A stretch of DNA of 64,000 nucleotides from a virus, in IMG/VR virus record IMGVR_UViG_3300045988_091501, positions 32,001 to 96,000 of that record. One strand, written 5' to 3'. Numbering within the stretch: position 1 is the first letter of the stretch; the number at the start of each line of letters is the position of its first letter. The translations under genes were made by a program, and so were the position numbers. Under the pieces are notes generated by a model, which worked only from the letters and a program-made list of their open reading frames with translations, did not search any database and was not told where the DNA came from. This document shows positions 9,062-55,980 of this stretch, piece by piece.

Positions 9062-9114
9062 ACATATATAAGGGGTGAGGTAATACTTGCCCCTACTAAG
9101 GAGTGAGAATAAAT

Positions 9115-9489
9115 ATGTGTCAACATATGTATTATAAAGATGAAACAGAATATTTTCCAAGGCTGTATTGTAACATTGACGATAAGATATGTATATATGC
9201 TAAACAGTGCTTAAAGGAAAACAAATTCGTACCAAATGGAGATTTATGGAAGGAATGTTACAAGATGATTGAAGATAAAATTAAAGAAATCCCACAAGGC
9301 TCTTATTATGTGCAATCATATAGACCGAATAGAAGTGGTAAATTATTCTTATATGTTGTAATCAATGACCATGTTGAAAAAATACCAACAGAATTAACAT
9401 CTATTGACCAAGATTATATATATCTTAAAGAAGGACTTGACCGATATGAAGTTTCTCTTACGCCTTTTAGGGAAACTAGAAAGAAATAG
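9115..9489 (+). CDS. Cys-rich protein upstream of the MazF-like toxin (candidate non-canonical antitoxin)
   Basis: ATG 9115 follows an AAGGAGTG SD (the track start at 9103 is GTG). 124 aa with four N-terminal Cys (CQH...C...C...C). Its stop lies 1 nt before the toxin ATG. No RHH, AbrB or MazE-like motif recognised. Confidence 0.6.
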   Translation: MCQHMYYKDETEYFPRLYCNIDDKICIYAKQCLKENKFVPNGDLWKECYKMIEDKIKEIPQGSYYVQSYRPNRSGKLFLYVVINDHVEKIPTELTSIDQDYIYLKEGLDRYEVSLTPFRETRKK

Positions 9490-9490
9490 A

Positions 9491-9853
9491 ATGAAGAGGA
9501 AAGCAATAAAACAAGGCGAGGTTTGGATGTGCAATTTACCTAAAGGCGAAGATTCAGAGCAAATGGGTGTACGACCATGTTTAGTAATGAGCTTGGACAT
9601 TAGAAATGAAACAAGTTCAAATGTGTTTGTATTCCCCATAACCCACGCCAAGAAAAAAGACCAACCTTGCCATTATATATTATACAAAGAACATTATCCA
9701 TTCTTTACATATAAAGAAAACACTGTGTTATGTGAAGAGGGTAGAAGTATAAGCAAGAATAGATTAGATAGGTGTATAGGTGTTATCTTTGCAAAGGACT
9801 TAGTTGAAATATTGAAATGCAAAGAATTTGTATTTGTTGAAAAAAATGATTGA
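9491..9853 (+). CDS. mazF: MazF/PemK/EndoA-family endoribonuclease toxin
   Basis: From ATG 9491 the protein reads KQGEVWMCNLPKGEDSEQMGVRPCLVMS...VFVFPITH...NTVLCEEGRSISKNRLDRCIG. This parallels B. subtilis EndoA ([27 protein letters not shown]...AAIT...DSVILLEQIRTIDKQRL). Confidence 0.85.
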   Translation: MKRKAIKQGEVWMCNLPKGEDSEQMGVRPCLVMSLDIRNETSSNVFVFPITHAKKKDQPCHYILYKEHYPFFTYKENTVLCEEGRSISKNRLDRCIGVIFAKDLVEILKCKEFVFVEKND

Positions 9854-9878
9854 CAGCCTTCTTTCTTTGTAGTATAAT
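9850..9878 (+). promoter_or_regulatory. sigma-A-type promoter TTGACA-17-TATAAT inside the late operon
   Basis: TTGACA at 9850-9855, a 17-nt spacer, TATAAT at 9873-9878. About 30 nt upstream of the 9909 gene. Confidence 0.65.
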
Positions 9879-9904
9879 AAGACCATATTAAAGAAAGGAG
9901 GCTG
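9854..9904 (+). promoter_or_regulatory. 15-bp hairpin pairing the promoter spacer with the downstream Shine-Dalgarno
   Basis: CAGCCTTCTTTCTTT (9854-9868) pairs with AAAGAAAGGAGGCTG (9890-9904), with one G-U pair. The loop holds the -10 element. The 3' arm contains the SD of the 9909 gene. Confidence 0.55.
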
Positions 9905-9908
9905 TAGA

Positions 9909-10247
9909 ATGATTAAGAAATTCATTGTGTCTTTATCTTCTATCATTGGTATATCTTGCATTATATACTATACAAGTAAATATTATATTGAAAGACAACT
10001 ATGCTTTACAGATAATATGCTCATTCCTTGGACAATTATATCCTCTTGTATCATCGTTGCCTTAATAGTTGGTTTATTTTCTTTATGGAAAGTAGATAAG
10101 ATAGAAAGACAGAATAATGAAATGAAATCAATATTGCTAAAGTTGACAGAAGATTCAGAAGAATATTATGATTCATTATGTCACCACTTGCAAAATAGTA
10201 GAGAATTAAGTTTAGATATTTTTGACAAAATGCAAGAAAGGAATTAG
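9909..10247 (+). CDS. small membrane protein (2 predicted TM segments)
   Basis: AAAGGAGG SD and its own promoter at 9850-9878. 112 aa with two hydrophobic segments and a charged C-terminal tail. Confidence 0.7.
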   Translation: MIKKFIVSLSSIIGISCIIYYTSKYYIERQLCFTDNMLIPWTIISSCIIVALIVGLFSLWKVDKIERQNNEMKSILLKLTEDSEEYYDSLCHHLQNSRELSLDIFDKMQERN

Positions 10248-10249
10248 TG

Positions 10250-10570
10250 ATGAATAATCAGCAAAAATGGTTTAGCCGTAACAACTTTAGTGACAACTAT
10301 GATTATGCTGAAAAGGTGCTAAAGAGGTTTAATCTTGACAAGTATCATTTTGCCTATGATGGTGGTGAACTGGCTTTATTGATTGAAAGTGGATTAAAGA
10401 AATATAAGGTGGTAACTGATGAAGTAGAATGTTTGATGAAGATTTATAGGTGTGATGTTCATGCAAATTTTGGCAAGTACACCAAAGAAAACTTGGTACT
10501 CAAAAAGACGTTTAATGACGATTGTATATGGAATAGTATCAAGTGGATTGCAAAGGATTCAAAATTGTAA
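10250..10570 (+). CDS. hypothetical protein, partner of the 9909 membrane protein
   Basis: ATG 10250 lies immediately after the upstream TAG (the track start at 10247 is GTG). 106 aa. No motif recognised. Confidence 0.65.
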   Translation: MNNQQKWFSRNNFSDNYDYAEKVLKRFNLDKYHFAYDGGELALLIESGLKKYKVVTDEVECLMKIYRCDVHANFGKYTKENLVLKKTFNDDCIWNSIKWIAKDSKL

Positions 10571-10589
10571 TCGTACATAGTTTTTCCTC

Positions 10590-10618
10590 TTGACTTTTCC
10601 TCCTTTATATGGTATAAT
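10590..10618 (+). promoter_or_regulatory. sigma-A-type promoter TTGACT-17-TGgTATAAT
   Basis: TTGACT at 10590-10595, a 17-nt spacer, extended -10 TGGTATAAT at 10610-10618. Upstream of the 10649/agrB-like pair. Confidence 0.65.
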
Positions 10619-10640
10619 GTATATATCAGATAAAGGAGGA
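10598..10640 (+). promoter_or_regulatory. 11-bp hairpin pairing the promoter spacer with the downstream Shine-Dalgarno
   Basis: TCCTCCTTTAT (10598-10608) is the perfect complement of ATAAAGGAGGA (10630-10640). The loop holds TGGTATAAT. A T-rich tract runs up to ATG 10649. Confidence 0.55.
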
Positions 10641-10648
10641 TATTTATT

Positions 10649-11110
10649 ATGTTAAGAGAAATGATAATTGATTTTATGTTGTTTAGTTTTGTAGAAGGAC
10701 TTTTATATGCAATGTTCTTCAACAGAGTGTGTAAATGTAAAAAGTTTAATATATTTGAAATCATTGTAATGAGTATAGGAAATTGTGTGGTATTTTGCTT
10801 ATTTCCACCAATTATCTATCAGATATTTATGATGGGCTGGATGGCATTTTGTTTACATCTAAAGAATGGAACAGACCATACAACATTTCAATATGTTAAG
10901 TATAGCTTTTTAGTTATGGTCGGACAGTTGATAACCGAAATGGTATTTGCTATGTTTTATGATTTTGTTTTAAACATTGATTTTTCTAAAAGTTCACCAT
11001 TAACTGTATTTATTATAATGATTCCAATTAGAGCAATACAGTTTATTATTATATATAAGTTAGGAGGATTCAACATGAAGGGTTGGATGGGTGGAGTAGT
11101 TCGTAAGTAA
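10649..11110 (+). CDS. polytopic membrane protein (~5 TM), upstream partner of AgrB-like gene
   Basis: AAAGGAGG SD and its own promoter at 10590-10618. 153 aa, almost entirely hydrophobic. An in-frame AGGAGG-N6-ATG at 11062-11077 could also initiate an 11-aa peptide, MKGWMGGVVRK. Confidence 0.7.
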   Translation: MLREMIIDFMLFSFVEGLLYAMFFNRVCKCKKFNIFEIIVMSIGNCVVFCLFPPIIYQIFMMGWMAFCLHLKNGTDHTTFQYVKYSFLVMVGQLITEMVFAMFYDFVLNIDFSKSSPLTVFIIMIPIRAIQFIIIYKLGGFNMKGWMGGVVRK

Positions 11111-11136
11111 TTACAACTACAACAAAAGGTCTTGTC

Positions 11137-11163
11137 GGCTCTTCCTAAGAACCGAAGTACATA
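11137..11163 (+). promoter_or_regulatory. imperfect hairpin + GTACATA element
   Basis: CGGCTCTTCCTAAGAACCG, then AA, then GTACATA (11157-11163). ATG 11180 lies 23 nt from the G. Confidence 0.4.
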
Positions 11164-11179
11164 AAAAAGGAGTGTTGAT

Positions 11180-11707
11180 ATGTTAGACAAACTACAATTA
11201 TTTTTGAAGTCTAAAATTGGTCAACCTTGGGCTTATTATATAACTTGTGTTGTCTATCTTATATTAACATTCGGTGGACTAATAGGCATAGGTTATATAT
11301 TTGGTGTTTGGTGGCAAATGCTTGTGTTAGGAATTTGTTTAAGTTGTGTTCGCAGTTACACAATGGGATTCCATTGTCACACAAATGGTAAATGTTTTAT
11401 CATTAGTTCAATAATTGGCATAATGTTCTCTATTATATTACAGACTATTCCTATATGGGTAGTCTTTTTATTATGCTTATATTCTTGTGTAGATATTTAC
11501 AAGAGAGCGCCGATAGAGTTAAATACAGAACATGAAGGGAAAGATGAGGACTGGCATTTCAAAAGGGTTGTATTGATTATGACTATTTATATGGCTATTT
11601 CTCTTATAACATATTATTTTGGATTAGAGCAATTATGTAAATGTGTATTATTAAGTCTTGTAATGACAGACTTATTACTATTTAAAAACCATAAAGAATA
11701 TATATAG
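11180..11707 (+). CDS. agrB: AgrB-like accessory gene regulator protein B (peptide-processing membrane protease family)
   Basis: 175 aa polytopic membrane protein. It contains VRSYTMGFHCHTNGKCFIISS, which matches the AgrB core R-x-x-x-G-G/x-H...C...S. The His-to-Cys spacing is 7, as for S. aureus AgrB H77/C84. Confidence 0.6.
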   Translation: MLDKLQLFLKSKIGQPWAYYITCVVYLILTFGGLIGIGYIFGVWWQMLVLGICLSCVRSYTMGFHCHTNGKCFIISSIIGIMFSIILQTIPIWVVFLLCLYSCVDIYKRAPIELNTEHEGKDEDWHFKRVVLIMTIYMAISLITYYFGLEQLCKCVLLSLVMTDLLLFKNHKEYI

Positions 11708-11720
11708 AGGGGATAGATAT

Positions 11721-12173
11721 ATGGAAGAAAATCAAGAATTACACGACCTTAAAGCCAAGGTTAATAAAATAGAATATACAGAAATCAAAGAATTAAAAGA
11801 TGAAATTCAGAAAGTAAAAATTGATCTTAACACAAATAATATTTTAACAAAGCAATGTATTGAAAGTAATGATAAAATGTCAAATACATTAGATACATTA
11901 AAGGACACAATGATTGAAGTGGCTCAAAGTGTTAATGATAGTAATAAAGTAACATTAGAATTGGCTTCAACAGTAAAAGATTTGAATGATAAAGTAAAGA
12001 ATGTTGAAAGCACAATGGATAAGAAATTTAATGAAGTAAATGAACGAATTGAAGTTATTGATGATAAAGGTAAATTTGATTGGATGCTATTTTTAAAGCA
12101 TAACGCAGTTAGTATTTTGCTTGGAATAGGTGCTTTAATTTATGCTTTGTCACAACTTGGAATAAATCTATAA
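11721..12173 (+). CDS. XhlA-like coiled-coil protein with C-terminal membrane anchor
   Basis: 150 aa. A long heptad-like K/E/N/D-rich region is followed by one C-terminal TM (AVSILLGIGALIYALSQLGI). This is the architecture of PBSX XhlA-type lysis-accessory proteins. Confidence 0.45.
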   Translation: MEENQELHDLKAKVNKIEYTEIKELKDEIQKVKIDLNTNNILTKQCIESNDKMSNTLDTLKDTMIEVAQSVNDSNKVTLELASTVKDLNDKVKNVESTMDKKFNEVNERIEVIDDKGKFDWMLFLKHNAVSILLGIGALIYALSQLGINL

Positions 12174-12185
12174 TGGAGGTAATAC

Positions 12186-12365
12186 ATGGTAACAATAGCA
12201 AGGATTGGCGGTCAAGTTGAACAAGCAACCGCAGAATTATATGGTTTATCTATTGATAATAAGCCTATTAGTGATGATATTCCTAATGCTTCTACATTTT
12301 ATGAGATGGACACAAAGATTGCATTTTTATATGATGCAGAAAATAAACAATGGTTAGAACAATAG
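12186..12365 (+). CDS. small hypothetical protein (59 aa, below the track cutoff)
   Basis: I translated ATG 12186 to TAG 12363-12365 by hand: MVTIARIGGQVEQATAELYGLSIDNKPISDDIPNASTFYEMDTKIAFLYDAENKQWLEQ. GGAGG SD. It fills the gap between neighbouring genes. Confidence 0.6.
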   Translation: MVTIARIGGQVEQATAELYGLSIDNKPISDDIPNASTFYEMDTKIAFLYDAENKQWLEQ

Positions 12366-12374
12366 GAGGGTAAT

Positions 12375-13109
12375 ATGGACATAATTGATATTGTTCTCTC
12401 AAAGAAATATACAGATAAATCATTACAAGGTATTACTGGCGCTTTAGATGGTAAGAATTGTACGATTAAATCAGCCACTAAAACCGATGGTGTCACAACT
12501 GTTATATTCGCATGGACAGCAGATGATGGGACAGAAAAGACAACAACCATTCAAGTTAATGATGGAAATAATGATTACGAAGATTTAATTAACAGACCCA
12601 AAATTGAAGGTGTTGACTTAATTGGTAATCTTACATTTGAAAATTTAGGCGTTGCAAGTGCTACTGATTTAGCACAAACAGATGGACATTTACAAGATTT
12701 GGCAGACTTAGTAGGTAACAAGGCTAATCTACCTATGCCAAATGAAACAGTAGTTGGTAACATTAAACATGTTGATACAAAGATTGATGGTCTAATTGAT
12801 GATAATGCAACTGGAATAACTAAAACATTTTCAAGTGATAAGATTGCAAAGACCTTTGCTACACTTGAAGAAGTAAACGAACGTATACCCCAATATGAAA
12901 TCATGCCTATTGCAACGGAATCTTGTGGTGGTCAAGTGGTTCAATTTATTGGAACAAGCACAAGTGACTATACACATGGATATTTTTATGAATGTGTTCA
13001 AAATGATGGAACATATAAATGGACAAACATAAAAATTCAAGAAAACACTATTACACAAGAACAATATCAAAGTATATTAGATAGATTAGTTGCTTTGGAA
13101 AATAAATAA
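12375..13109 (+). CDS. tail-fibre/receptor-binding-like protein
   Basis: GGAGGG SD. 244 aa. Fibre-like strings (INRPKIEGVDLIGNLTFENLGVAS, VVGNIKHVDTKIDGLIDDN) and a C-terminal coiled-coil tail. Confidence 0.5.
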   Translation: MDIIDIVLSKKYTDKSLQGITGALDGKNCTIKSATKTDGVTTVIFAWTADDGTEKTTTIQVNDGNNDYEDLINRPKIEGVDLIGNLTFENLGVASATDLAQTDGHLQDLADLVGNKANLPMPNETVVGNIKHVDTKIDGLIDDNATGITKTFSSDKIAKTFATLEEVNERIPQYEIMPIATESCGGQVVQFIGTSTSDYTHGYFYECVQNDGTYKWTNIKIQENTITQEQYQSILDRLVALENK

Positions 13110-14271: not shown

Positions 14272-14796
14272 ATGATAACTTTAGGGTTAGATATGAGTAG
14301 TAAGAAAAGTGGTTATAGTCTTTTCAATGATAAAGAATTAAAACTATACGGTCTTTGGGAAATACCTGAAGATATTACTGAATGGCGTGATAGAATTGTG
14401 TGGATGGGCAGACAGTTGGATAGTTTTGTAAAGGAACACAAAGTAGACCAAGTGTTTGTAGAAGATGTTCCTTTGTCTATGGCTAATCCACAAACATTGA
14501 AAATTCTATCAGCATTACAAGGAATGATTATATCCGTGTGTATTCTTAATAATCTTAAAGTATCATTTATTGGAGTGTCACAATGGAGAAGTGCTCTAGG
14601 ATTATTTACAGGCACAACAAAAGGCATGACAAGAGCAGAAATGAAGAAATCAAGTATTGAATATGCTAATAAGACATTTGATTTAGATTTGGTATGGAAG
14701 AGTAAGACAAGCAAGTTTAATCAAGATGACTCTAGTGATGCGATAAATGTGGCTTGGTCACAGTTGATTGATAAGAAACAATTTGGTCGGAGGTGA
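14272..14796 (+). CDS. RuvC-like Holliday junction resolvase
   Basis: 174 aa. N-terminal ITLGLDMSSKKSGYSLF (catalytic Asp context), then VFVEDVP (Glu), then a C-terminal DDSSDAINVAW (Asp) pattern. These are typical of RuvC-fold phage resolvases. Confidence 0.7.
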   Translation: MITLGLDMSSKKSGYSLFNDKELKLYGLWEIPEDITEWRDRIVWMGRQLDSFVKEHKVDQVFVEDVPLSMANPQTLKILSALQGMIISVCILNNLKVSFIGVSQWRSALGLFTGTTKGMTRAEMKKSSIEYANKTFDLDLVWKSKTSKFNQDDSSDAINVAWSQLIDKKQFGRR

Positions 14797-25433: not shown

Positions 25434-27170
25434 ATGCCTACACAAGCAGAATATAATTTGGCTAAACAAAGGCTACGGGTTAAATATTTTAAGATAAATT
25501 TGCTTAATTATCAATTTCAAAATGTTGGTGAATTAACAGGTGATACGATTGAAACACCAAGTTTTACTATTGATGCAAATTCAGATATTCGTAGAACTTG
25601 TAGTATAGTATTTACTCCTAGAGATAGTTCTTTCGACATTAGGCAAGGAAACAAAATTTGGCTTGATAAATATGTTCAAGTATTTGTCGGTCAAAAAGAT
25701 ATGAGAACAAATAAGATAGAATATACTAATATGGGGATTTATTTAATAAATAATCCCCAACGTGTATATTCTGCAACAGATAACACTTTAACAATTCAAG
25801 GTGTTGACTTAATGGCTAGAATGACAGGTTTAAGAAATGGCAACTTGCAAGGAATACCATACTTAGTACCTCAAGGCTCAAATGTTCGTGTTGCAATTAT
25901 AGCTTGTCTTGAAATAGCTGGGTTTACAAAATATGTCGTTGACGAATGTGAAATTGATACACCTAATGATATTAAAATTGATGTAGGTGGGACAATTTAT
26001 CAGATATTGACAAAATTAAGGGATATACTACCGAATTATCAGATGTATTTTGATGTAGACGGAGTATTCCATTACAACAAAATCCCTAGTGGTAAGAATG
26101 AGCAAGTTATGGTTGATGATGATATATGGAATGTGAATGTGGTCAACTATCAAAAAGCAACTAGCTTTGAAACGTTAAAGAACTCTATTGAGGTGTTTGG
26201 CAAGACGCATGATATTAAGAATTATGGCGGTCAAGCAACTATTGATGGAGATACATATAAAATTTCTATAGCTGGGGTTAAGAAGTTAAGGAAAAATACA
26301 AAGATAGGTTTTAATACAAATGTTGACTTAGGACAGACCAAGAAATTATCAGTGACAACAACTAAGACTAAGGTAAATAGTTCTACAGGCGAGGTTACAA
26401 CAGAAACAACAACTGAAACTTATTCTATTAGAACTGAAAAGGGTGTTGTACCGACATTTAAAAATGAAGATACTTATTATGTTGTTAAGTTTGTGTTCGG
26501 TACTGACCATTGGGAATTTACAAATGTTCAACAAGTAGAGAATCCTGTTGTTGCCGTTATCAGTGATGATGTCTATATTATCAATGATGCAAGTATATCA
26601 CAATTAACAGATGGTATGACATATACATTTAGGACTCCAAAGACAGGGTGTGAGAATGTATACTTACCTTATTTCAGAATTAACAATTTAAAGAAGTTAG
26701 AGATCAAAAACACTGTCAAGTTAAGGAATGATACAACTTATACATTGAAATATTTTGAAGCAAGTGAATATGACCAAGAGAAATATTTTCAATTTATGGG
26801 TGAGGTAACTCCATATGCTCAAATTAAAGAAGAAAATCCTGATAGTCCATATTATGTTGGTGGGTCTGTTGGGGAGATTCGGCAAGTGTTACAAGGTGGA
26901 GATTATGATAATATCTACACAAGTGACTTGGCTATGGAAAGGGCGAAATATGAGTTATATAGGTTATGTAGATTACAAGACAGCGTAACAATAAATACCA
27001 TTCCTATTTACTGGTTAGATGTAAATTGGTTAATAGAGATTACTTTACCCAATAAATATGGAATAGAAGAAAAAGAGTTATACATGATTAAATCTATTAA
27101 CATAGGGAATGGACTAGGAGCTACTCAAAGTATTACTGCTTCAAAATATTATCCATTTTATGATGAGTAA
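25434..27170 (+). CDS. tail-associated/baseplate hub-like structural protein
   Basis: 578 aa. The N-terminal region (KYFKINLLNYQFQNVGELTG...SFTIDANSDIRRTCSIVFTP) resembles the N termini of siphovirus Tal / prophage-tail proteins. Confidence 0.5.
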   Translation: MPTQAEYNLAKQRLRVKYFKINLLNYQFQNVGELTGDTIETPSFTIDANSDIRRTCSIVFTPRDSSFDIRQGNKIWLDKYVQVFVGQKDMRTNKIEYTNMGIYLINNPQRVYSATDNTLTIQGVDLMARMTGLRNGNLQGIPYLVPQGSNVRVAIIACLEIAGFTKYVVDECEIDTPNDIKIDVGGTIYQILTKLRDILPNYQMYFDVDGVFHYNKIPSGKNEQVMVDDDIWNVNVVNYQKATSFETLKNSIEVFGKTHDIKNYGGQATIDGDTYKISIAGVKKLRKNTKIGFNTNVDLGQTKKLSVTTTKTKVNSSTGEVTTETTTETYSIRTEKGVVPTFKNEDTYYVVKFVFGTDHWEFTNVQQVENPVVAVISDDVYIINDASISQLTDGMTYTFRTPKTGCENVYLPYFRINNLKKLEIKNTVKLRNDTTYTLKYFEASEYDQEKYFQFMGEVTPYAQIKEENPDSPYYVGGSVGEIRQVLQGGDYDNIYTSDLAMERAKYELYRLCRLQDSVTINTIPIYWLDVNWLIEITLPNKYGIEEKELYMIKSINIGNGLGATQSITASKYYPFYDE

Positions 27171-27271
27171 TTATATATAGTAAAAGGACAGTGGGTTGCA
27201 AACTATTTTCTAATGACCTTATTAGAATTACTTTTACTATATCTATATCTATAAAAGGAAAGGGCTGTACA

Positions 27272-27850
27272 ATGAACAATAAAAAAGAAAAAGAAGAAGA
27301 AATTTGGAAACCAATAGTTTCATTACAACAGTACAATAAATATTATGAAATTTCTAATTTTGGCAATGTTAGAAATAAAAATCATTATGTTTTAAAACAA
27401 CAAAAGGGAAAACATAATGAATATAGACGTATTATGTTAATTAGAGGGTGTTCTTTTGCTATACATAGGCTTGTAGCAGAAGCTTTTCTTGACAAAGCAG
27501 ATTTTAAATATTGTGATTATGAAGATATTAGCAATATTGATTTAGATAAATTAAAAATCAATCATAAAGATGAAGATCCTTCTAATAATTACGTAGATAA
27601 TCTTGAGTGGTGTACGGATAGTTATAACTGTTCTTATGGTACAAGAAACGAAAGAAGAGCAGAAAAAATGAGAATTCCAATAAAACAATATTCTTTAAAC
27701 GGAGAATTTATTAAGGATTGGGATGGAGCTTACATAGCGAAAAAAGAATTAAATTTCAAAACAGACACTCATATTATAGAATGTTGTGAAGACAAAAGAA
27801 AGACTGCCTATAAATATATTTGGAAATATGCTAATTATGATGAAGAATAA
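27272..27850 (+). CDS. HNH homing endonuclease (NUMOD4 + HNH_3 type)
   Basis: ATG 27272 follows AAAGGAAAGGG. EIWKPI...YYEISNFGNVRNK (NUMOD4-like), HRLVAEAFL, INHKDEDPSNNYVDNLEWCT (HNH). The listed 27191 start adds an implausible leader. Confidence 0.8.
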   Translation: MNNKKEKEEEIWKPIVSLQQYNKYYEISNFGNVRNKNHYVLKQQKGKHNEYRRIMLIRGCSFAIHRLVAEAFLDKADFKYCDYEDISNIDLDKLKINHKDEDPSNNYVDNLEWCTDSYNCSYGTRNERRAEKMRIPIKQYSLNGEFIKDWDGAYIAKKELNFKTDTHIIECCEDKRKTAYKYIWKYANYDEE

Positions 27851-27864
27851 AGGAGATTTTAATT

Positions 27865-28497
27865 ATGGCAAATGAATCAGTATTGTTTAAACGTGGTGAT
27901 AGTGCTACAATTACTAGCACACCAGTAATAGACGGGCAAATACTTTTTGATACAAGTGGCAATGGGAAAATGTATTTAGACAATGGTACAGATAGACTAG
28001 AAATGGGTGGAGCAGTTACAGTTGATGCTTCTCTTTCTAAGACTTCTACTAATGCCGTTCAAAATAAAGCAGTAACAGGTAATATCTTAAATAGTTTAAA
28101 AGAAGTTAGCGCGGCTACACAACAAAATACGATTGCTGGTGCTTTGGCATTAAAAGAGGCAAACAGTGTATTAAAAGAGACAAATAGTAATTTGGGCGGT
28201 TGTTCATTCGAGCAGGAAGGAAATGATTTTTATATCACAGGTGCTGATTCAGTGCGAAAAAAATTGGGTAGAACGGGGACAATCGCTGGTGTTGCCGTAT
28301 ATTTTGACGATCCTCCGCACTCTGTGCTCAAAACTTGGCAAGGAGGTTGCGTAAAATGGGATGGCGACAAGTTGATCGTCACTGTCGAAGATGACTATGC
28401 GCAAGGCCATCTTACAGTAGGCACAGTAATTGGAAAGAGAAATAGACCTCAAACATGGGGAGATACAACGGAAGGGTTTTTCATACTCTGGTATTAA
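27865..28497 (+). CDS. short tail fibre / receptor-binding protein with GC-rich C-terminal half
   Basis: N terminus KRGDSATITSTPVIDGQILFDTSGNGKMYLDNGTDRLEMGG is a common phage fibre N-terminal motif. From about nt 28195 the base composition shifts to much higher G+C. Confidence 0.7.
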   Translation: MANESVLFKRGDSATITSTPVIDGQILFDTSGNGKMYLDNGTDRLEMGGAVTVDASLSKTSTNAVQNKAVTGNILNSLKEVSAATQQNTIAGALALKEANSVLKETNSNLGGCSFEQEGNDFYITGADSVRKKLGRTGTIAGVAVYFDDPPHSVLKTWQGGCVKWDGDKLIVTVEDDYAQGHLTVGTVIGKRNRPQTWGDTTEGFFILWY

Positions 28498-55373: not shown

Positions 55374-55621
55374 ACTTTAATTATTATCTCGGTTTAATCG
55401 ACCTCACCTTAAACGGGGTTGTTCATCAACTCACATGGAACAGTTCTACCAAATTAAGCTATTGCTTGTTTAACGATACAAGCTACCTCCAACTGCCAAG
55501 TCATAACATATAGCCATGGTGCATTGTAGGACTCTAACCTACATTTCTCTTATAGCGAGCGTCTTTATTAGACTAAATACCTATATGTTTCGCACTGTCT
55601 GTGTACTTTAGACGGTGATAG

Positions 55622-55691
55622 TTGGTTAATTTGGAATTGAACCAAAATTTCCTTTATTAAAAAGGCGTACTTACGTTTATACTATTAACCA
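55622..55691 (-). ncRNA. tRNA-like element with aberrant 5-nt anticodon loop (possible pseudo-tRNA)
   Basis: Perfect acceptor TGGTTAA/TTAACCA, D arm GTAT-AAACGTAA-GTAC, T arm TTTGG-TTCAATT-CCAAA. The anticodon arm is CCTTT-TTAAT-AAAGG. Opening one pair gives a TTTAATA loop with UAA at positions 34-36 and a pyrimidine at 37. Confidence 0.35.
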
Positions 55692-55786
55692 ATTTATATA
55701 TTTATCTATAATCTTTTGAATGATTCGGCATATAAATACATTTGTACCCATTAAGTAACATTTTGTGTTTCCTTTCTTAAATAAAA

Positions 55787-55874
55787 TACGCACTCCGAGA
55801 ATCGAACTCGGCTTTACCTTGTTAGGGCTTACGATTTATAAGATCGTGGCTCTTACCTACTGAGCTAAGTGCGC
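55787..55874 (-). tRNA. tRNA with anticodon UAU (reads AUA) and an unusually long 19-nt variable region
   Basis: Minus-strand fold by hand: acceptor GCGCACT/AGTGCGT (G1-U72), D arm GCTC-AGTAGGTAA-GAGC, anticodon arm ACGAT-CTTATAA-ATCGT, variable AAGCCCTAACAAGGTAAAG, T arm CCGAG-TTCGATT-CTCGG, discriminator A. No encoded CCA. 88 nt. Confidence 0.75.
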
Positions 55875-55980
55875 ATGTGAGGTTTGTAGCTTTCACTACC
55901 ATGTTTTATTTTCGATGGGCTAGACCTCAAAGTAACCATCTAGTTAGGAGCGACCTAACAACTTCTTGCTTTATATATGT

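What the first reader, a model, noticed from the sequence alone, without database searches (positions are those of the whole stretch)
10590..11707. Phage-borne AgrB-like gene with a 5-TM partner, its own promoter and no recognisable AgrD
The 175-aa polytopic protein at 11180 carries R-x-x-x-x-G-x-H-(6 residues)-C-x-x-x-S, with the His-Cys spacing of the catalytic pair of AgrB (established for S. aureus AgrB H77/C84). AgrB normally processes an adjacent roughly 45-aa AgrD propeptide. I find no such ORF upstream (11111-11179) or downstream; the next gene starts at 11721.

Instead, the co-transcribed upstream gene encodes a 153-aa, roughly 5-TM protein. Its last 11 codons (MKGWMGGVVRK) are preceded by a strong in-frame AGGAGG-N6-ATG. 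Agr homologues have been reported in at least one Clostridioides difficile phage, so a signalling or eavesdropping role is plausible. This two-gene layout differs from agrBD.
Basis: partly seen in the sequence, partly recalled or inferred. Interest (0 to 1): 0.75.

Follow-up and report, generated by a model that had tools for sequence, protein, structure and literature searches.

The report
Phage AgrB enzyme with hidden 11-codon peptide gene
A large gut phage carries a true relative of the bacterial pheromone-making enzyme AgrB with no normal pheromone precursor gene; next to it lie a highly variable five-helix membrane protein and a conserved 11-codon gene that may encode the enzyme's unusually short substrate.

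Summary
ORF 11180-11707 is a genuine AgrB-family protein (Pfam PF04647, E=7e-20). Its R58/G63/H65/C72 align with S. aureus AgrB R70/G75/H77/C84 and are kept in all relatives. No canonical AgrD is detectable in the window.

The main new result concerns the last 11 codons of the upstream 5-TM gene (11075-11110, MKGWMGGVVRK). They form an independently conserved mini-ORF:
- A Shine-Dalgarno site precedes its ATG in every related locus examined.
- In six loci it sits in a different reading frame from the 5-TM gene, or after that gene's stop codon, and still encodes the same peptide family.
- In distant relatives it is longer and has an acidic, proline-containing tail (MGWVWYGEIEKPEDEEAEVEE).

A hairpin, which is a strong terminator in several lineages, separates it from agrB.

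Among phages whose AgrB and flanks are 90-100% identical, the body of the 5-TM gene is only 28-68% identical.

The module lies in a conserved operon of about 115-kb SPbeta-like phages from pig gut, rumen and human gut.

Best reading (confidence 0.45): the peptide is a leaderless, cysteine-free AgrD equivalent processed by the AgrB-like peptidase. The biological role is untested. I rate it a new variant of a known kind.

The parts
9850..9878 (+). Promoter-like site P1 (TTGACA-17-TATAAT, 12 of 12), the probable start of the operon
   Evidence: A site of the same type (11-12 of 12, mostly with TG) lies upstream of the equivalent gene in L001, L007, L014, L025, L028 and L031. Consensus match only; not tested experimentally.
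9909..10247 (+). Gene X: 112-aa protein with two hydrophobic segments and a charged C-terminal half. Conserved directly upstream of the module.
   Evidence: Equivalent genes of 102-116 aa are in all loci, including the remote L030 and L031. No Pfam, PHROG or PADLOC match.
10247..10570 (+). Gene Y: 107-aa soluble alpha/beta protein of unknown family
   Evidence: 31 homologues, all without Pfam domains. AF2 pLDDT 87. No significant PDB fold match; the best is the T4 MotA C-terminal domain at E about 0.3.
10590..10618 (+). Promoter-like site P2 (TTGACT-17-TATAAT with TG) directly upstream of the 5-TM gene
   Evidence: Present in the window lineage, L001 and L014; absent in L007, L028, L030 and L031.
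10649..11110 (+). 5-TM partner protein (153 aa). The N-terminal third is conserved: D8, E16, G17, N45, C46, P54, Q58 and E97 are invariant in 35 diverse sequences (alignment A3). The rest is hypervariable.
   Evidence: AF2 models helices 2-27, 35-51, 54-73, 79-106 and 117-140, and the last 11 residues have pLDDT below 50. 181 homologues. 129 clusters at 50% identity, all but three (178, 179 and 187 aa) no longer than 171 aa; Pfam domains, precomputed only for the hits, are none. No Pfam, PHROG, NCBIfam, PADLOC or PDB match.
10673..11075 (+). Divergence island inside the partner gene
   Evidence: Nucleotide identity to L011, L013, L020, L022 and L023 is 28-68% here, against 87-100% in the 750 nt upstream and 95-100% immediately downstream.
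11062..11067 (+). Shine-Dalgarno AGGAGG, 7 nt upstream of the mini-ORF ATG
   Evidence: An equivalent site (AGGAGG, AAGGAGA, GGAGG and variants) is present in every locus examined, although the partner-frame amino acids at that position differ.
11075..11110 (+). Mini-ORF of 11 codons, MKGWMGGVVRK. In this window it is in frame with, and forms the end of, the partner gene.
   Evidence: Separate or out of frame in L013, L023, L025, L026, L027 and L031. 16 of 120 partner proteins lack the in-frame tail. All four Gly codons occur at codon 7 and CGT/CGC/AGA at codon 10, with the amino acid kept.
11135..11155 (+). Short imperfect hairpin (CGGCTCTT-CCT-AAGAACCG, one C.A mismatch) between the mini-ORF and agrB
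   Evidence: Weak in the window (z = 0.25). A hairpin at the same relative position, with different and mutually compensating sequences, occurs in about 11 lineages. It is terminator-like in L007, L024, L015 and L028 (z -2.7 to -4.9).
11180..11707 (+). AgrB-family membrane cysteine peptidase homologue (175 aa). R58 = 11351-11353, H65 = 11372-11374, C72 = 11393-11395.
   Evidence: PF04647 E=7e-20. H65 and C72 invariant, R58 and G63 nearly invariant. Ungapped alignment to S. aureus AgrB R70/G75/H77/C84. hhalign probability 93.8% to Brevibacillus phage Davies gp46 AgrB.
11721..12173 (+). Gene Z: 150-aa coiled-coil protein with a C-terminal TM helix. It starts 13 nt after agrB and is conserved downstream of agrB in the related loci.
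   Evidence: Only weak coiled-coil-type matches.

Best explanation
This is a conserved phage membrane module. It makes three products from one transcript: a five-helix membrane protein, an independently translated 11-residue peptide (MKGWMGGVVRK), and, after a hairpin that acts as a terminator in several lineages, an AgrB-family membrane cysteine peptidase.

The peptide is the most likely substrate of the AgrB-like enzyme, either free or, when read in frame, as the cytoplasmic tail of the five-helix protein. On this reading it is a minimal AgrD equivalent. It has lost the N-terminal amphipathic leader and the ring-forming Cys/Ser, and it keeps only an AIP-sized hydrophobic core (M-K-x-W-x-G) and a short charged tail.

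By analogy with AgrB chemistry, the enzyme would cleave after the conserved Gly and pass through an acyl-enzyme on C72. The product cannot be a canonical thiolactone.

The five-helix protein probably binds, presents or exports the peptide. Its hypervariability, together with the variable peptide positions 3-5, suggests allele-specific recognition.

**Shown:** AgrB family membership with intact catalytic residues; independent conservation of the mini-ORF; the operon layout; the divergence island.

**Inferred:** that the peptide is the AgrB substrate, the cleavage site, and any role for the partner.
For: **1. The enzyme is an intact AgrB.**
- PF04647 match at E=7e-20.
- R58/G63/H65/C72 align to R70/G75/H77/C84. 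PMC10196373 reports those residues as required for AgrB peptidase activity.
- H65 and C72 are kept in all 11 aligned sequences and the His/Cys pair is also kept in the remote L014, L028 and L031 proteins.

**2. The mini-ORF is an independent coding unit.**
- A Shine-Dalgarno site precedes the ATG in every locus examined.
- It is out of frame or separate in L013, L023, L025, L026, L027 and L031, with the peptide preserved.
- Synonymous codon variation occurs at conserved Gly, Val, Arg and Lys positions.
- AF2 leaves these 11 residues disordered (pLDDT below 50) while the rest of the protein is modelled confidently.

**3. Adjacency to agrB is kept over deep divergence.** Partner, mini-ORF and AgrB are adjacent in 17 of the 18 distinct loci that contain both a partner gene and the DNA just downstream of it. 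These include L014 (AgrB 37% identical), L028 and L031.

**4. Distant versions look AgrD-like at the tail.** They carry W-x-G followed by an acidic, proline-containing tail: L031 MGWVWYGEIEKPEDEEAEVEE, and P0170 ...LWIGEVEKPEKEE. P0172 and P0186 have P-x-x-P. AgrD tails have ...IM|DEVEVPKEL, and P-x-x-P is described as the AgrB-binding motif (PMC3901668; sequences).

**5. The operon layout fits a precursor made in excess over its enzyme.** The order is small gene, then hairpin or terminator, then enzyme gene.

**6. Fused and split forms alternate.** This argues that the peptide and the partner interact functionally.

**7. The topology fits.** Lys-rich loop 28-34 suggests the partner's C-terminal tail is cytoplasmic (my inference from the positive-inside rule). 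That is the side on which PMC10196373 places the AgrB active site.

**8. The variation pattern fits allele-specific recognition.** There is a sharp divergence island over the partner gene and a smaller dip around the AgrB catalytic region at 11300-11417. This resembles the pattern of agr specificity groups (own knowledge).
Against: - The AgrD family model TIGR04223 does not match the short or the long mini-ORF peptides, although it does match a S. aureus AgrD control.
- The window peptide has no Cys, Ser or Thr, so the defining ring chemistry of AgrD is impossible.
- Its tail (GVVRK) is basic. In S. aureus the acidic residues D33/E34 are essential for AgrB cleavage (PMC10196373).
- One relative (L030) has the partner plus tail but no agrB within 1.1 kb downstream.
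- AgrB active-site alleles (GFHCHTNGKCF versus GYHCNTNVHCF) do not track the peptide variants.
- The hairpin in this window is not stronger than shuffled sequence (z = 0.25).
- Natural variants with a deleted AgrB N-terminus (L017) or a truncated partner (L021) exist, so the module is dispensable for the phage.
- In 104 of 120 relatives the peptide is simply the C-terminal tail of the partner, so independent translation in this window is inferred, not shown.
- There is no experimental evidence of any kind.
Confidence: 0.45

Rival explanations
1. The phage AgrB acts on the host's own AgrD, either boosting, diverting or destroying the host pheromone. The 5-TM protein and its conserved tail would then serve an unrelated or merely accessory membrane function.
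For: The AgrB is intact but there is no canonical AgrD in 64 kb. Phages carrying agr genes are thought to interfere with host signalling (PMC3901668). The strong sigma-A-type promoters would allow expression from host RNA polymerase.
Against: The tight, deep co-conservation of partner, mini-ORF and AgrB has no explanation on this reading. Neither does the fused/split behaviour of the peptide or the AgrD-like acidic and Pro-containing tails of distant mini-ORFs. The host is unknown, so whether it has an agr system cannot be checked. The only host hint is one 3.9-kb contig binned in a rumen Erysipelotrichaceae MAG.
Confidence: 0.15
2. The mini-ORF is a regulatory leader peptide. Its translation, together with the downstream hairpin or terminator, sets how much agrB (and gene Z) is expressed. 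The peptide itself would have no function after release.
For: A short ORF with its own Shine-Dalgarno site is followed 20-25 nt later by a hairpin. That hairpin is a strong intrinsic terminator in L007, L024, L015 and L028 (z down to -4.9). The distance from the mini-ORF stop to the agrB ATG is nearly fixed at 69 nt. Arrest and leader peptides are often conserved at the amino-acid level (own knowledge).
Against: I saw no alternative (anti-terminator) pairing between the mini-ORF and the hairpin arm when reading the sequences. The whole region from the mini-ORF to agrB was not folded. The stop codon lies too far from the stem for a terminating ribosome to melt it (inference from spacing). The hairpin has no T-run and no significant stability in the window lineage. 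The acidic, Pro-containing extensions of 10-14 residues in distant relatives and the fusion to the partner protein are not expected for a leader peptide. No Rfam family matches.
Confidence: 0.15
3. The module is a competition or exclusion device. The small cationic, Trp-containing peptide, matured by AgrB, would be toxic or inhibitory to non-lysogens or to rival phages. The hypervariable 5-TM protein would be the matching immunity protein.
For: The divergence island is confined to the partner gene between near-identical flanks, which is typical of immunity and specificity genes under diversifying selection (own knowledge). Many peptide alleles differ at positions 3-5. SPbeta itself carries a bacteriocin-plus-immunity cassette, sublancin/SunI (own knowledge). 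A MazF-like toxin gene lies next door.
Against: An 11-residue unmodified peptide, or a shorter cleaved product, is very small for a bacteriocin. There is no transporter and no match to any known bacteriocin family. There is no PADLOC match for any of the module genes. This reading shares the unproven step that AgrB processes the peptide.
Confidence: 0.15
4. The conserved tail is only the functional cytoplasmic C-terminus of the 5-TM protein, for example a docking peptide for AgrB. The split versions would be gene fissions that supply the tail in trans. No free signalling peptide would exist.
For: The tail is in frame in 104 of 120 relatives. The invariant Met and the upstream Shine-Dalgarno site could have been selected only in lineages that later split.
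Against: The Shine-Dalgarno site is present in all fused loci too, while the amino acids it encodes there vary. At least six different split junctions exist. AF2 gives the tail no contact with the helical bundle.
Confidence: 0.1

Closest known systems
Staphylococcal and clostridial agrBD (AgrB peptidase plus AgrD propeptide)
   Same: An AgrB-family enzyme with the same R/G/H/C catalytic constellation. A small peptide gene lies immediately next to it. Sequence hypervariability is concentrated in the neighbouring genes, with a smaller dip around part of AgrB.
   Different: The peptide gene is upstream, has only 11 codons and has no amphipathic leader. It has no Cys or Ser and does not match the AgrD model. 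A 5-TM protein of unknown family comes with it. No AgrC or AgrA was found in the window.
Enterococcus faecalis fsrB-fsrD
   Same: A small peptide gene lies in frame with the 3' end of the upstream polytopic membrane protein gene and was long read as that protein's C-terminus (PMC7028047).
   Different: There the upstream gene is the AgrB homologue itself. By my own knowledge FsrD is a 53-residue propeptide with a Ser lactone. Here the upstream gene is unrelated to AgrB (hhalign probability 0.4%) and the peptide has 11 residues.
Phage agr cassettes: C. difficile phiCDHM1 (agrC-agrB-agrD) and Brevibacillus phages Davies, Emery and Abouo
   Same: These are phage-borne AgrB genes. In Davies, two membrane proteins (gp44, gp45) lie directly upstream of AgrB (gp46). 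The adjacent 39-aa candidate AgrD (gp47, MNKQ...KVSIGNPVAPKELRK) also lacks Cys. Davies AgrB is related to the window protein (hhalign 93.8%).
   Different: In those phages the candidate AgrD is 39-45 aa and lies downstream of agrB. phiCDHM1 also has a kinase. The Davies membrane proteins are not related to the 5-TM partner. None of these phages, nor any of 50,697 phage records, matches the window genes by DNA or tblastn.
RiPP and lantibiotic operons with a precursor gene, then a leaky terminator, then enzyme genes (own knowledge)
   Same: The order is small peptide gene, then hairpin or terminator, then processing enzyme gene.
   Different: No leader peptide and no known modification enzyme other than AgrB. 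The hairpin is weak in this window.

Membership tests
AgrB (Pfam PF04647) | Profile match above the curated threshold | tested here: met
   71.6 bits against a cut-off of 23, E=7e-20, residues 18-163 on profile positions 23-177 of 185. The NCBIfam equivalog PRK01100 gave only 28 bits against a cut-off of 282, so this is not the staphylococcal-type equivalog.
AgrB (Pfam PF04647) | Catalytic His and Cys six residues apart, aligned with S. aureus H77/C84, plus R70 and G75 | tested here: met
H65 and C72 are invariant in 11 homologues.
AgrB (Pfam PF04647) | Polytopic membrane protein | tested here: met
   A Kyte-Doolittle scan finds hydrophobic stretches covering residues 17-58, 69-108 and 129-149, enough for several transmembrane helices. 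Topology was not determined.
AgrB (Pfam PF04647) | Endopeptidase/cyclase activity on a cognate propeptide | not testable with these tools
   Needs co-expression and mass spectrometry.
AgrD (NCBIfam TIGR04223, Pfam PF05931) - for the mini-ORF | Profile match | tested here: not met
   No match at E up to 10 for the window peptide with flank, for the L031, P0170 and P0198 long forms, or for Davies gp47. A S. aureus AgrD control scored 33.2 bits. PF05931 itself was not run on the mini-ORF alone.
AgrD (NCBIfam TIGR04223, Pfam PF05931) - for the mini-ORF | About 40-50 residues with an N-terminal amphipathic leader | tested here: not met
   10-12 codons in the window clade and 21 in L031.
AgrD (NCBIfam TIGR04223, Pfam PF05931) - for the mini-ORF | Cys (or Ser) four residues before the cleavage site, to form the five-residue ring | tested here: not met
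   MKGWMGGVVRK has no Cys, Ser or Thr. Lys occupies the position four residues before the conserved Gly in 48 of 104 family representatives (shuffled expectation 25 +/- 3.6), but not in all; L031, for example, has MGWVWYG.
AgrD (NCBIfam TIGR04223, Pfam PF05931) - for the mini-ORF | Charged C-terminal tail with acidic residues and Pro (P-x-x-P) | tested here: inconclusive
   Not present in the window (GVVRK). Present in distant relatives: EIEKPEDEEAEVEE in L031, EVEKPEKEE in P0170, and PAKP and PSKP in P0172 and P0186.
AgrD (NCBIfam TIGR04223, Pfam PF05931) - for the mini-ORF | Encoded next to agrB | tested here: met
   69 nt upstream of agrB in the window. Adjacent in 17 of the 18 distinct loci that contain both a partner gene and the DNA just downstream of it. 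The exception is L030.
Complete agr quorum-sensing system (agrBDCA) | AgrC-type histidine kinase and AgrA LytTR response regulator | tested here: not met
   No HATPase or LytTR domain in the 33 window ORFs scanned against Pfam. Only 64 kb of an approximately 115-kb genome is in the window, and not every ORF was scanned.
Known anti-phage defence systems (PADLOC) | Profile match of any module protein | tested here: not met
   No match for the partner, AgrB, X, Y, the MazF-like ORF or ORF 9103-9489. Z gave only weak coiled-coil matches.

The most novel reading that the evidence does not exclude
The 11-codon gene, the AgrB-like enzyme and the hypervariable 5-TM protein together form a new phage-encoded peptide communication or recognition system with allelic 'pherotypes'. 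AgrB would cleave the leaderless peptide after Gly6 and release an AIP-sized product, linear or closed as a lactam through Lys2 or the N-terminus, since no Cys or Ser exists. That product would be exported and/or sensed allele-specifically through the 5-TM protein. This would be the shortest ribosomal pheromone precursor known and a new reaction outcome for the AgrB family.
Probability: 0.15. Interest if true: 0.9.

Novelty: new variant of a known kind. Interest (0 to 1): 0.62.

Why it matters
AgrB enzymes are known only as makers of cyclic thiolactone or lactone pheromones from AgrD precursors of about 45 residues. Here a whole clade of large gut and rumen phages keeps an intact AgrB next to a conserved 10-21-codon gene that has no cysteine and no leader.

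If that peptide is the substrate, three things would follow:
- AgrB chemistry and substrate range would be wider than thought.
- There would be a concrete, testable candidate for a second kind of phage peptide system besides arbitrium.
- Functional genes could hide as the 'last codons' of a longer gene, as happened historically with fsrD.

The allelic hypervariability of the 5-TM partner offers a natural experiment for specificity. If instead the peptide is only a tail or a leader, the finding is still a well-defined, widespread and unannotated phage membrane operon.

Tried and rejected
- **Public phage records.** DNA and tblastn searches of 50,697 records found no match for the region, the AgrB or the partner.
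- **Families for the partner.** Pfam, PHROGs, NCBIfam and PADLOC gave nothing. PDB by sequence profile gave nothing for either the partner or the AgrB. Foldseek of the confident partner model against the PDB gave nothing significant.
- **Partner as a divergent AgrB.** Rejected (hhalign probability 0.4%).
- **Partner related to Brevibacillus phage Davies gp44 or gp45.** Rejected.
- **Canonical AgrD.** Three forward frames of 9850-12400 and 89 small ORFs across the window gave no TIGR04223 match. The reverse frames of the region were not scanned.
- **Known RNA elements.** The Rfam search of 9800-12300 returned only a chance miRNA match.
- **More distant loci.** Three IMG/VR scans with single remote partner proteins found nothing. 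A degenerate DNA pattern for W-x-G-E-[VI]-E-K-P returned only unrelated proteins. Alignments A4 and A5 were too divergent for locus searches.
- **Lys2 as a universal ring nucleophile.** K-x3-G is enriched (48 of 104 against 25 expected) but not universal, so this stays speculation.
- **Co-variation of AgrB active-site alleles with peptide alleles.** None seen.
- **Gene Y fold.** No significant match.
- **Host.** The only hit was one short contig in a rumen Erysipelotrichaceae MAG, which is too weak to name a host.
Full report
**1. What is there**

The window is part of a large tailed phage. It carries:
- a 1413-aa tape measure protein, tail fibre proteins and an endolysin;
- an NrdD-type anaerobic ribonucleotide reductase, a DNA polymerase and helicases;
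- a DNA methylase, a dUTPase and RecJ- and DnaB-like proteins;
- two tRNAs.

Relatives carry SPbeta-type structural domains (YomU tube, YomN, YomW) and sit on contigs of 100-130 kb. The exact AgrB protein of the window occurs on 23 public contigs, the longest 115,676 bp. A near-identical GenBank TPA protein is already labelled 'acessory gene regulator B [Siphoviridae sp. ctcBx5]'. By my reading of the sample names (GAIO21, STEW19), the samples are pig gut and rumen. The only bacterial-genome hit is a 3.9-kb contig binned in a rumen Erysipelotrichaceae MAG. No record in the INPHARED phage collection matches the region by DNA or protein.

**2. Check of the observation**

Both ORFs are present as described.

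The 175-aa ORF (11180-11707) matches Pfam AgrB at E=7e-20, 71.6 bits against a threshold of 23.
- A pairwise alignment with S. aureus AgrB puts R58, G63, H65 and C72 on R70, G75, H77 and C84 without gaps. PMC10196373 describes these residues as required for AgrB peptidase activity.
- H65 and C72 are invariant, and R58 and G63 nearly so, in 11 homologues down to 54% identity.
- The pair is also kept in far more distant versions in L014, L028 and L031.

The 153-aa upstream protein is modelled with high confidence as five long helices. It has no relative in Pfam, PHROGs, NCBIfam, PADLOC, or the PDB by sequence or fold. It is not a diverged AgrB.

A TTGACT-17-TATAAT site with an upstream TG lies at 10590-10618.

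No canonical AgrD was found:
- The AgrD model TIGR04223 gave no hit in the three forward frames of 9850-12400.
- It gave no hit among 89 small ORFs lying mostly outside long ORFs anywhere in the window.
- It did score a S. aureus AgrD control at 33 bits.

**3. The 11 codons are a gene of their own**

Comparative data turn this into the central result.

In every related locus I could read, a Shine-Dalgarno sequence lies 5-10 nt before an ATG that opens a 10-12-codon frame. The consensus is M-K-x-x-x-G-G-V-V-R-K. The amino acids that the same bases encode in the 5-TM frame vary freely.

The mini-ORF is separated from the 5-TM frame in six loci:

| Locus | Arrangement | Peptide |
|---|---|---|
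| L013 | 5-TM gene ends with TAG; mini-ORF starts 2 nt later, in another frame | MKIVLGGVVRK |
| L023, L025, L026 | Start overlaps the 5-TM stop codon as ATGA | MKIWLGGVVRK; MKVVIGGVVRK; MKIVMGGVVCK |
| L027 | Separate ORF in yet another frame | MKVFLGGVVRK |
| L031 (distant) | Overlaps the end of the 5-TM gene in the +1 frame | MGWVWYGEIEKPEDEEAEVEE |

In L031 the 5-TM frame reads an unrelated sequence over the same bases.

Further support:
- Of the 120 partner proteins listed, 16 lack the in-frame tail. They end in at least seven different ways just after helix 5.
- Among 17 distinct mini-ORF DNA sequences, codon 7 uses all four Gly codons and codon 10 uses CGT, CGC and AGA. The amino acids stay fixed, while positions 3-5 vary among hydrophobic residues.
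- AlphaFold leaves exactly these 11 residues unstructured (pLDDT below 50) in an otherwise confident model.

I conclude with high confidence that the peptide is under selection in its own right. Independent translation in this particular window, where it is in frame, is inferred and not shown.

**4. Layout of the module**

The gap between the mini-ORF stop and the agrB ATG is 69 nt in most lineages (range 60-78 nt in the window's clade, 72 nt in L028 and 134 nt in the remote L031). It always contains a hairpin at about the same place, and the hairpin sequences differ and compensate between lineages:
- CGGTTCTT/AAGAACCG
- GACAGCTCT/AGAGCTGTC
- GACAGTTCT/AGAACTGTC
- TTAGTTCTT/AAGAACTAA
- AGTAGGGG/CCCCTACT
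- AACGGTGATC/GATCACCGTT
- and others.

In L007, L024, L015 and L028 the hairpin is followed by a T-run and is much more stable than shuffled sequence (z -2.7 to -4.9). In the window it carries a C.A mismatch, has no T-run and is not significant on its own (z = 0.25).

Upstream, the pair X (112 aa, two hydrophobic segments) and Y (107 aa, soluble) precedes the 5-TM gene in every locus, including the most distant ones. A consensus sigma-A-type promoter precedes X in seven lineages. The promoter directly before the 5-TM gene occurs only in some lineages.

Downstream, a 150-aa coiled-coil protein with a C-terminal TM helix starts 13 nt after agrB in the window. A gene of 141-156 aa sits in the same place in the related loci, but not in L028, where a 229-aa methyltransferase-like gene follows.

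The unit is therefore best drawn as: P1 (9850), X, Y, (P2), 5-TM, mini-ORF, hairpin, AgrB, Z. A MazF/PemK-like toxin gene sits immediately upstream.

**5. Variation**

Among phages whose AgrB is 92-95% identical and whose flanks are 90-100% identical at the DNA level, the body of the 5-TM gene (10673-11075) is only 28-68% identical. The boundaries are sharp: a few codons after the 5-TM start, and at the mini-ORF.

The first third of the protein is conserved and holds the invariant polar residues D8, E16, N45, Q58 and, further on, E97. The rest is hypervariable.

A smaller dip covers AgrB residues 41-80, around the catalytic motif. The two AgrB alleles there do not track the peptide variants.

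Decayed variants exist:
- an AgrB with its first 75 codons deleted (L017);
- a truncated partner (L021);
- an insertion of a 396-aa ORF with a replaced AgrB N-terminus (L003).

**6. How it most likely works**

The enzyme looks active, and the only conserved small product next to it is the mini-ORF peptide.

Distant forms of the peptide have a hydrophobic W-x-G core followed by an acidic, Pro-containing tail:
- EIEKPEDEE (L031)
- EVEKPEKEE (P0170)
- PAKP (P0172)
- PSKP (P0186)

They recall the AgrD C-terminal tail (S. aureus ...IM|DEVEVPKEL, from my own knowledge of that sequence) and the P-x-x-P motif cited as the AgrB-binding site (PMC3901668).

The order small gene, then terminator, then enzyme is also what one expects for a precursor made in excess over its processing enzyme.

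I therefore favour the reading that the peptide is a leaderless, Cys-free AgrD equivalent that the AgrB-like enzyme cleaves, probably after the conserved Gly. I also favour the view that the 5-TM protein handles the peptide, by presentation, export or recognition. In most alleles that protein carries the peptide as a cytoplasmic tail. The cytoplasmic placement is my inference from the Lys-rich loop 28-34.

This is a 'works like' argument. As a membership claim it fails:
- The AgrD profile does not match.
- The peptide is four times too short.
- It has no ring-forming residue.
- Its tail in this window is basic, whereas D33/E34 are essential in S. aureus.

A Lys four residues before the Gly is enriched in the family (48 of 104 representatives against 25 +/- 3.6 in shuffles). 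It is not universal, so a Lys-lactam ring is only a speculation.

One relative (L030) has the partner and tail but no agrB within 1.1 kb downstream.

I give the main explanation 0.45. The rivals are: action on host AgrD; a leader peptide or attenuator; a toxin-immunity pair; and a mere C-terminal tail. They are set out with their tests in the structured fields.

**7. Comparison with what is known**

- **Phage-borne agr genes.** These are known in C. difficile phiCDHM1 (agrC, agrB and a 45-aa agrD with P-x-x-P). Hargreaves et al. also noted them in phages Davies, Emery and Abouo, as AgrB plus a putative AgrD plus membrane proteins without a kinase domain.
- **Phage Davies.** I read the record. 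Two membrane proteins (gp44, gp45) precede AgrB (gp46), and a 39-aa ORF follows it (gp47...KVSIGNPVAPKELRK). That ORF also lacks Cys and is also missed by the AgrD model. The layout is reminiscent of the one here, but the membrane proteins are unrelated to the partner.
- **E. faecalis fsrD.** It lies in frame with the end of fsrB and was first taken for its C-terminus (PMC7028047). This is the closest precedent for a peptide gene hidden in the last codons of a polytopic membrane protein gene.

Three things are new here:
1. The extreme shortness and Cys-free nature of the peptide.
2. Its fused/split alternation with an unrelated 5-TM protein.
3. The allelic hypervariability of that protein, in a module conserved across a broad clade of large gut phages.

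**8. Verdict**

The finding is a new variant of a known kind: an agr-like peptide-processing module in phages. The function is unknown and rests on inference. Interest 0.62.

Noticed in passing
window 9103-9853 (+): A PemK/MazF-like toxin ORF lies at 9404-9853 (Pfam E=6.4e-18; PHROG 'MazF-like growth inhibitor'). A 128-aa ORF at 9103-9489 overlaps it upstream and could be the antitoxin. The pair sits between tail genes and is conserved in most related phages.
   Followed up: partly
window 9850-10570 (+): A perfect consensus promoter (TTGACA-17-TATAAT) is followed by two conserved genes of unknown function: X (two hydrophobic segments) and Y (soluble). The promoter is conserved in seven lineages. 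The Y model (pLDDT 87) resembles the T4 MotA C-terminal DNA-binding domain only weakly (Foldseek E about 0.3, TM about 0.48).
   Followed up: partly
L017 (IMGVR_UViG_3300045988_077163), equivalent to window 11125-11404: A natural deletion removes the intergenic hairpin and the first 75 codons of AgrB, including R58, H65 and C72. The partner and mini-ORF stay intact.
   Followed up: no
L003:2827-4017 (also L004, L005): A 396-aa ORF with a weak DUF4379 treble-clef zinc-finger match is inserted between the mini-ORF and agrB. The AgrB N-terminal half is replaced by a divergent sequence that lacks the Arg. This looks like a mobile insertion.
   Followed up: partly
window 27191-27850 (+) and 14272-14796 (+): A NUMOD4/HNH homing-endonuclease-like ORF lies among the tail genes. 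A weak RuvC-like ORF lies directly before the tape measure gene.
   Followed up: no
window 55621-55691 and 55786-55875 (-): Two phage tRNA genes: Leu(TAA) and Ile(TAT).
   Followed up: no
window 11300-11417 (+): A second, smaller dip in nucleotide identity (62-87%) lies inside agrB, around the catalytic motif. It reflects two alleles (GFHCHTNGKCF and GYHCNTNVHCF) that recombine independently of the peptide and partner alleles.
   Followed up: partly
L029 (Brevibacillus phage Davies KC595518) 26243-28283: The annotated AgrB cassette of this isolated phage has two upstream membrane proteins. Its 39-aa downstream ORF has no cysteine and is not recognised by the AgrD model. Cys-free candidate AgrB partners may therefore be more widespread in phages.
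   Followed up: partly
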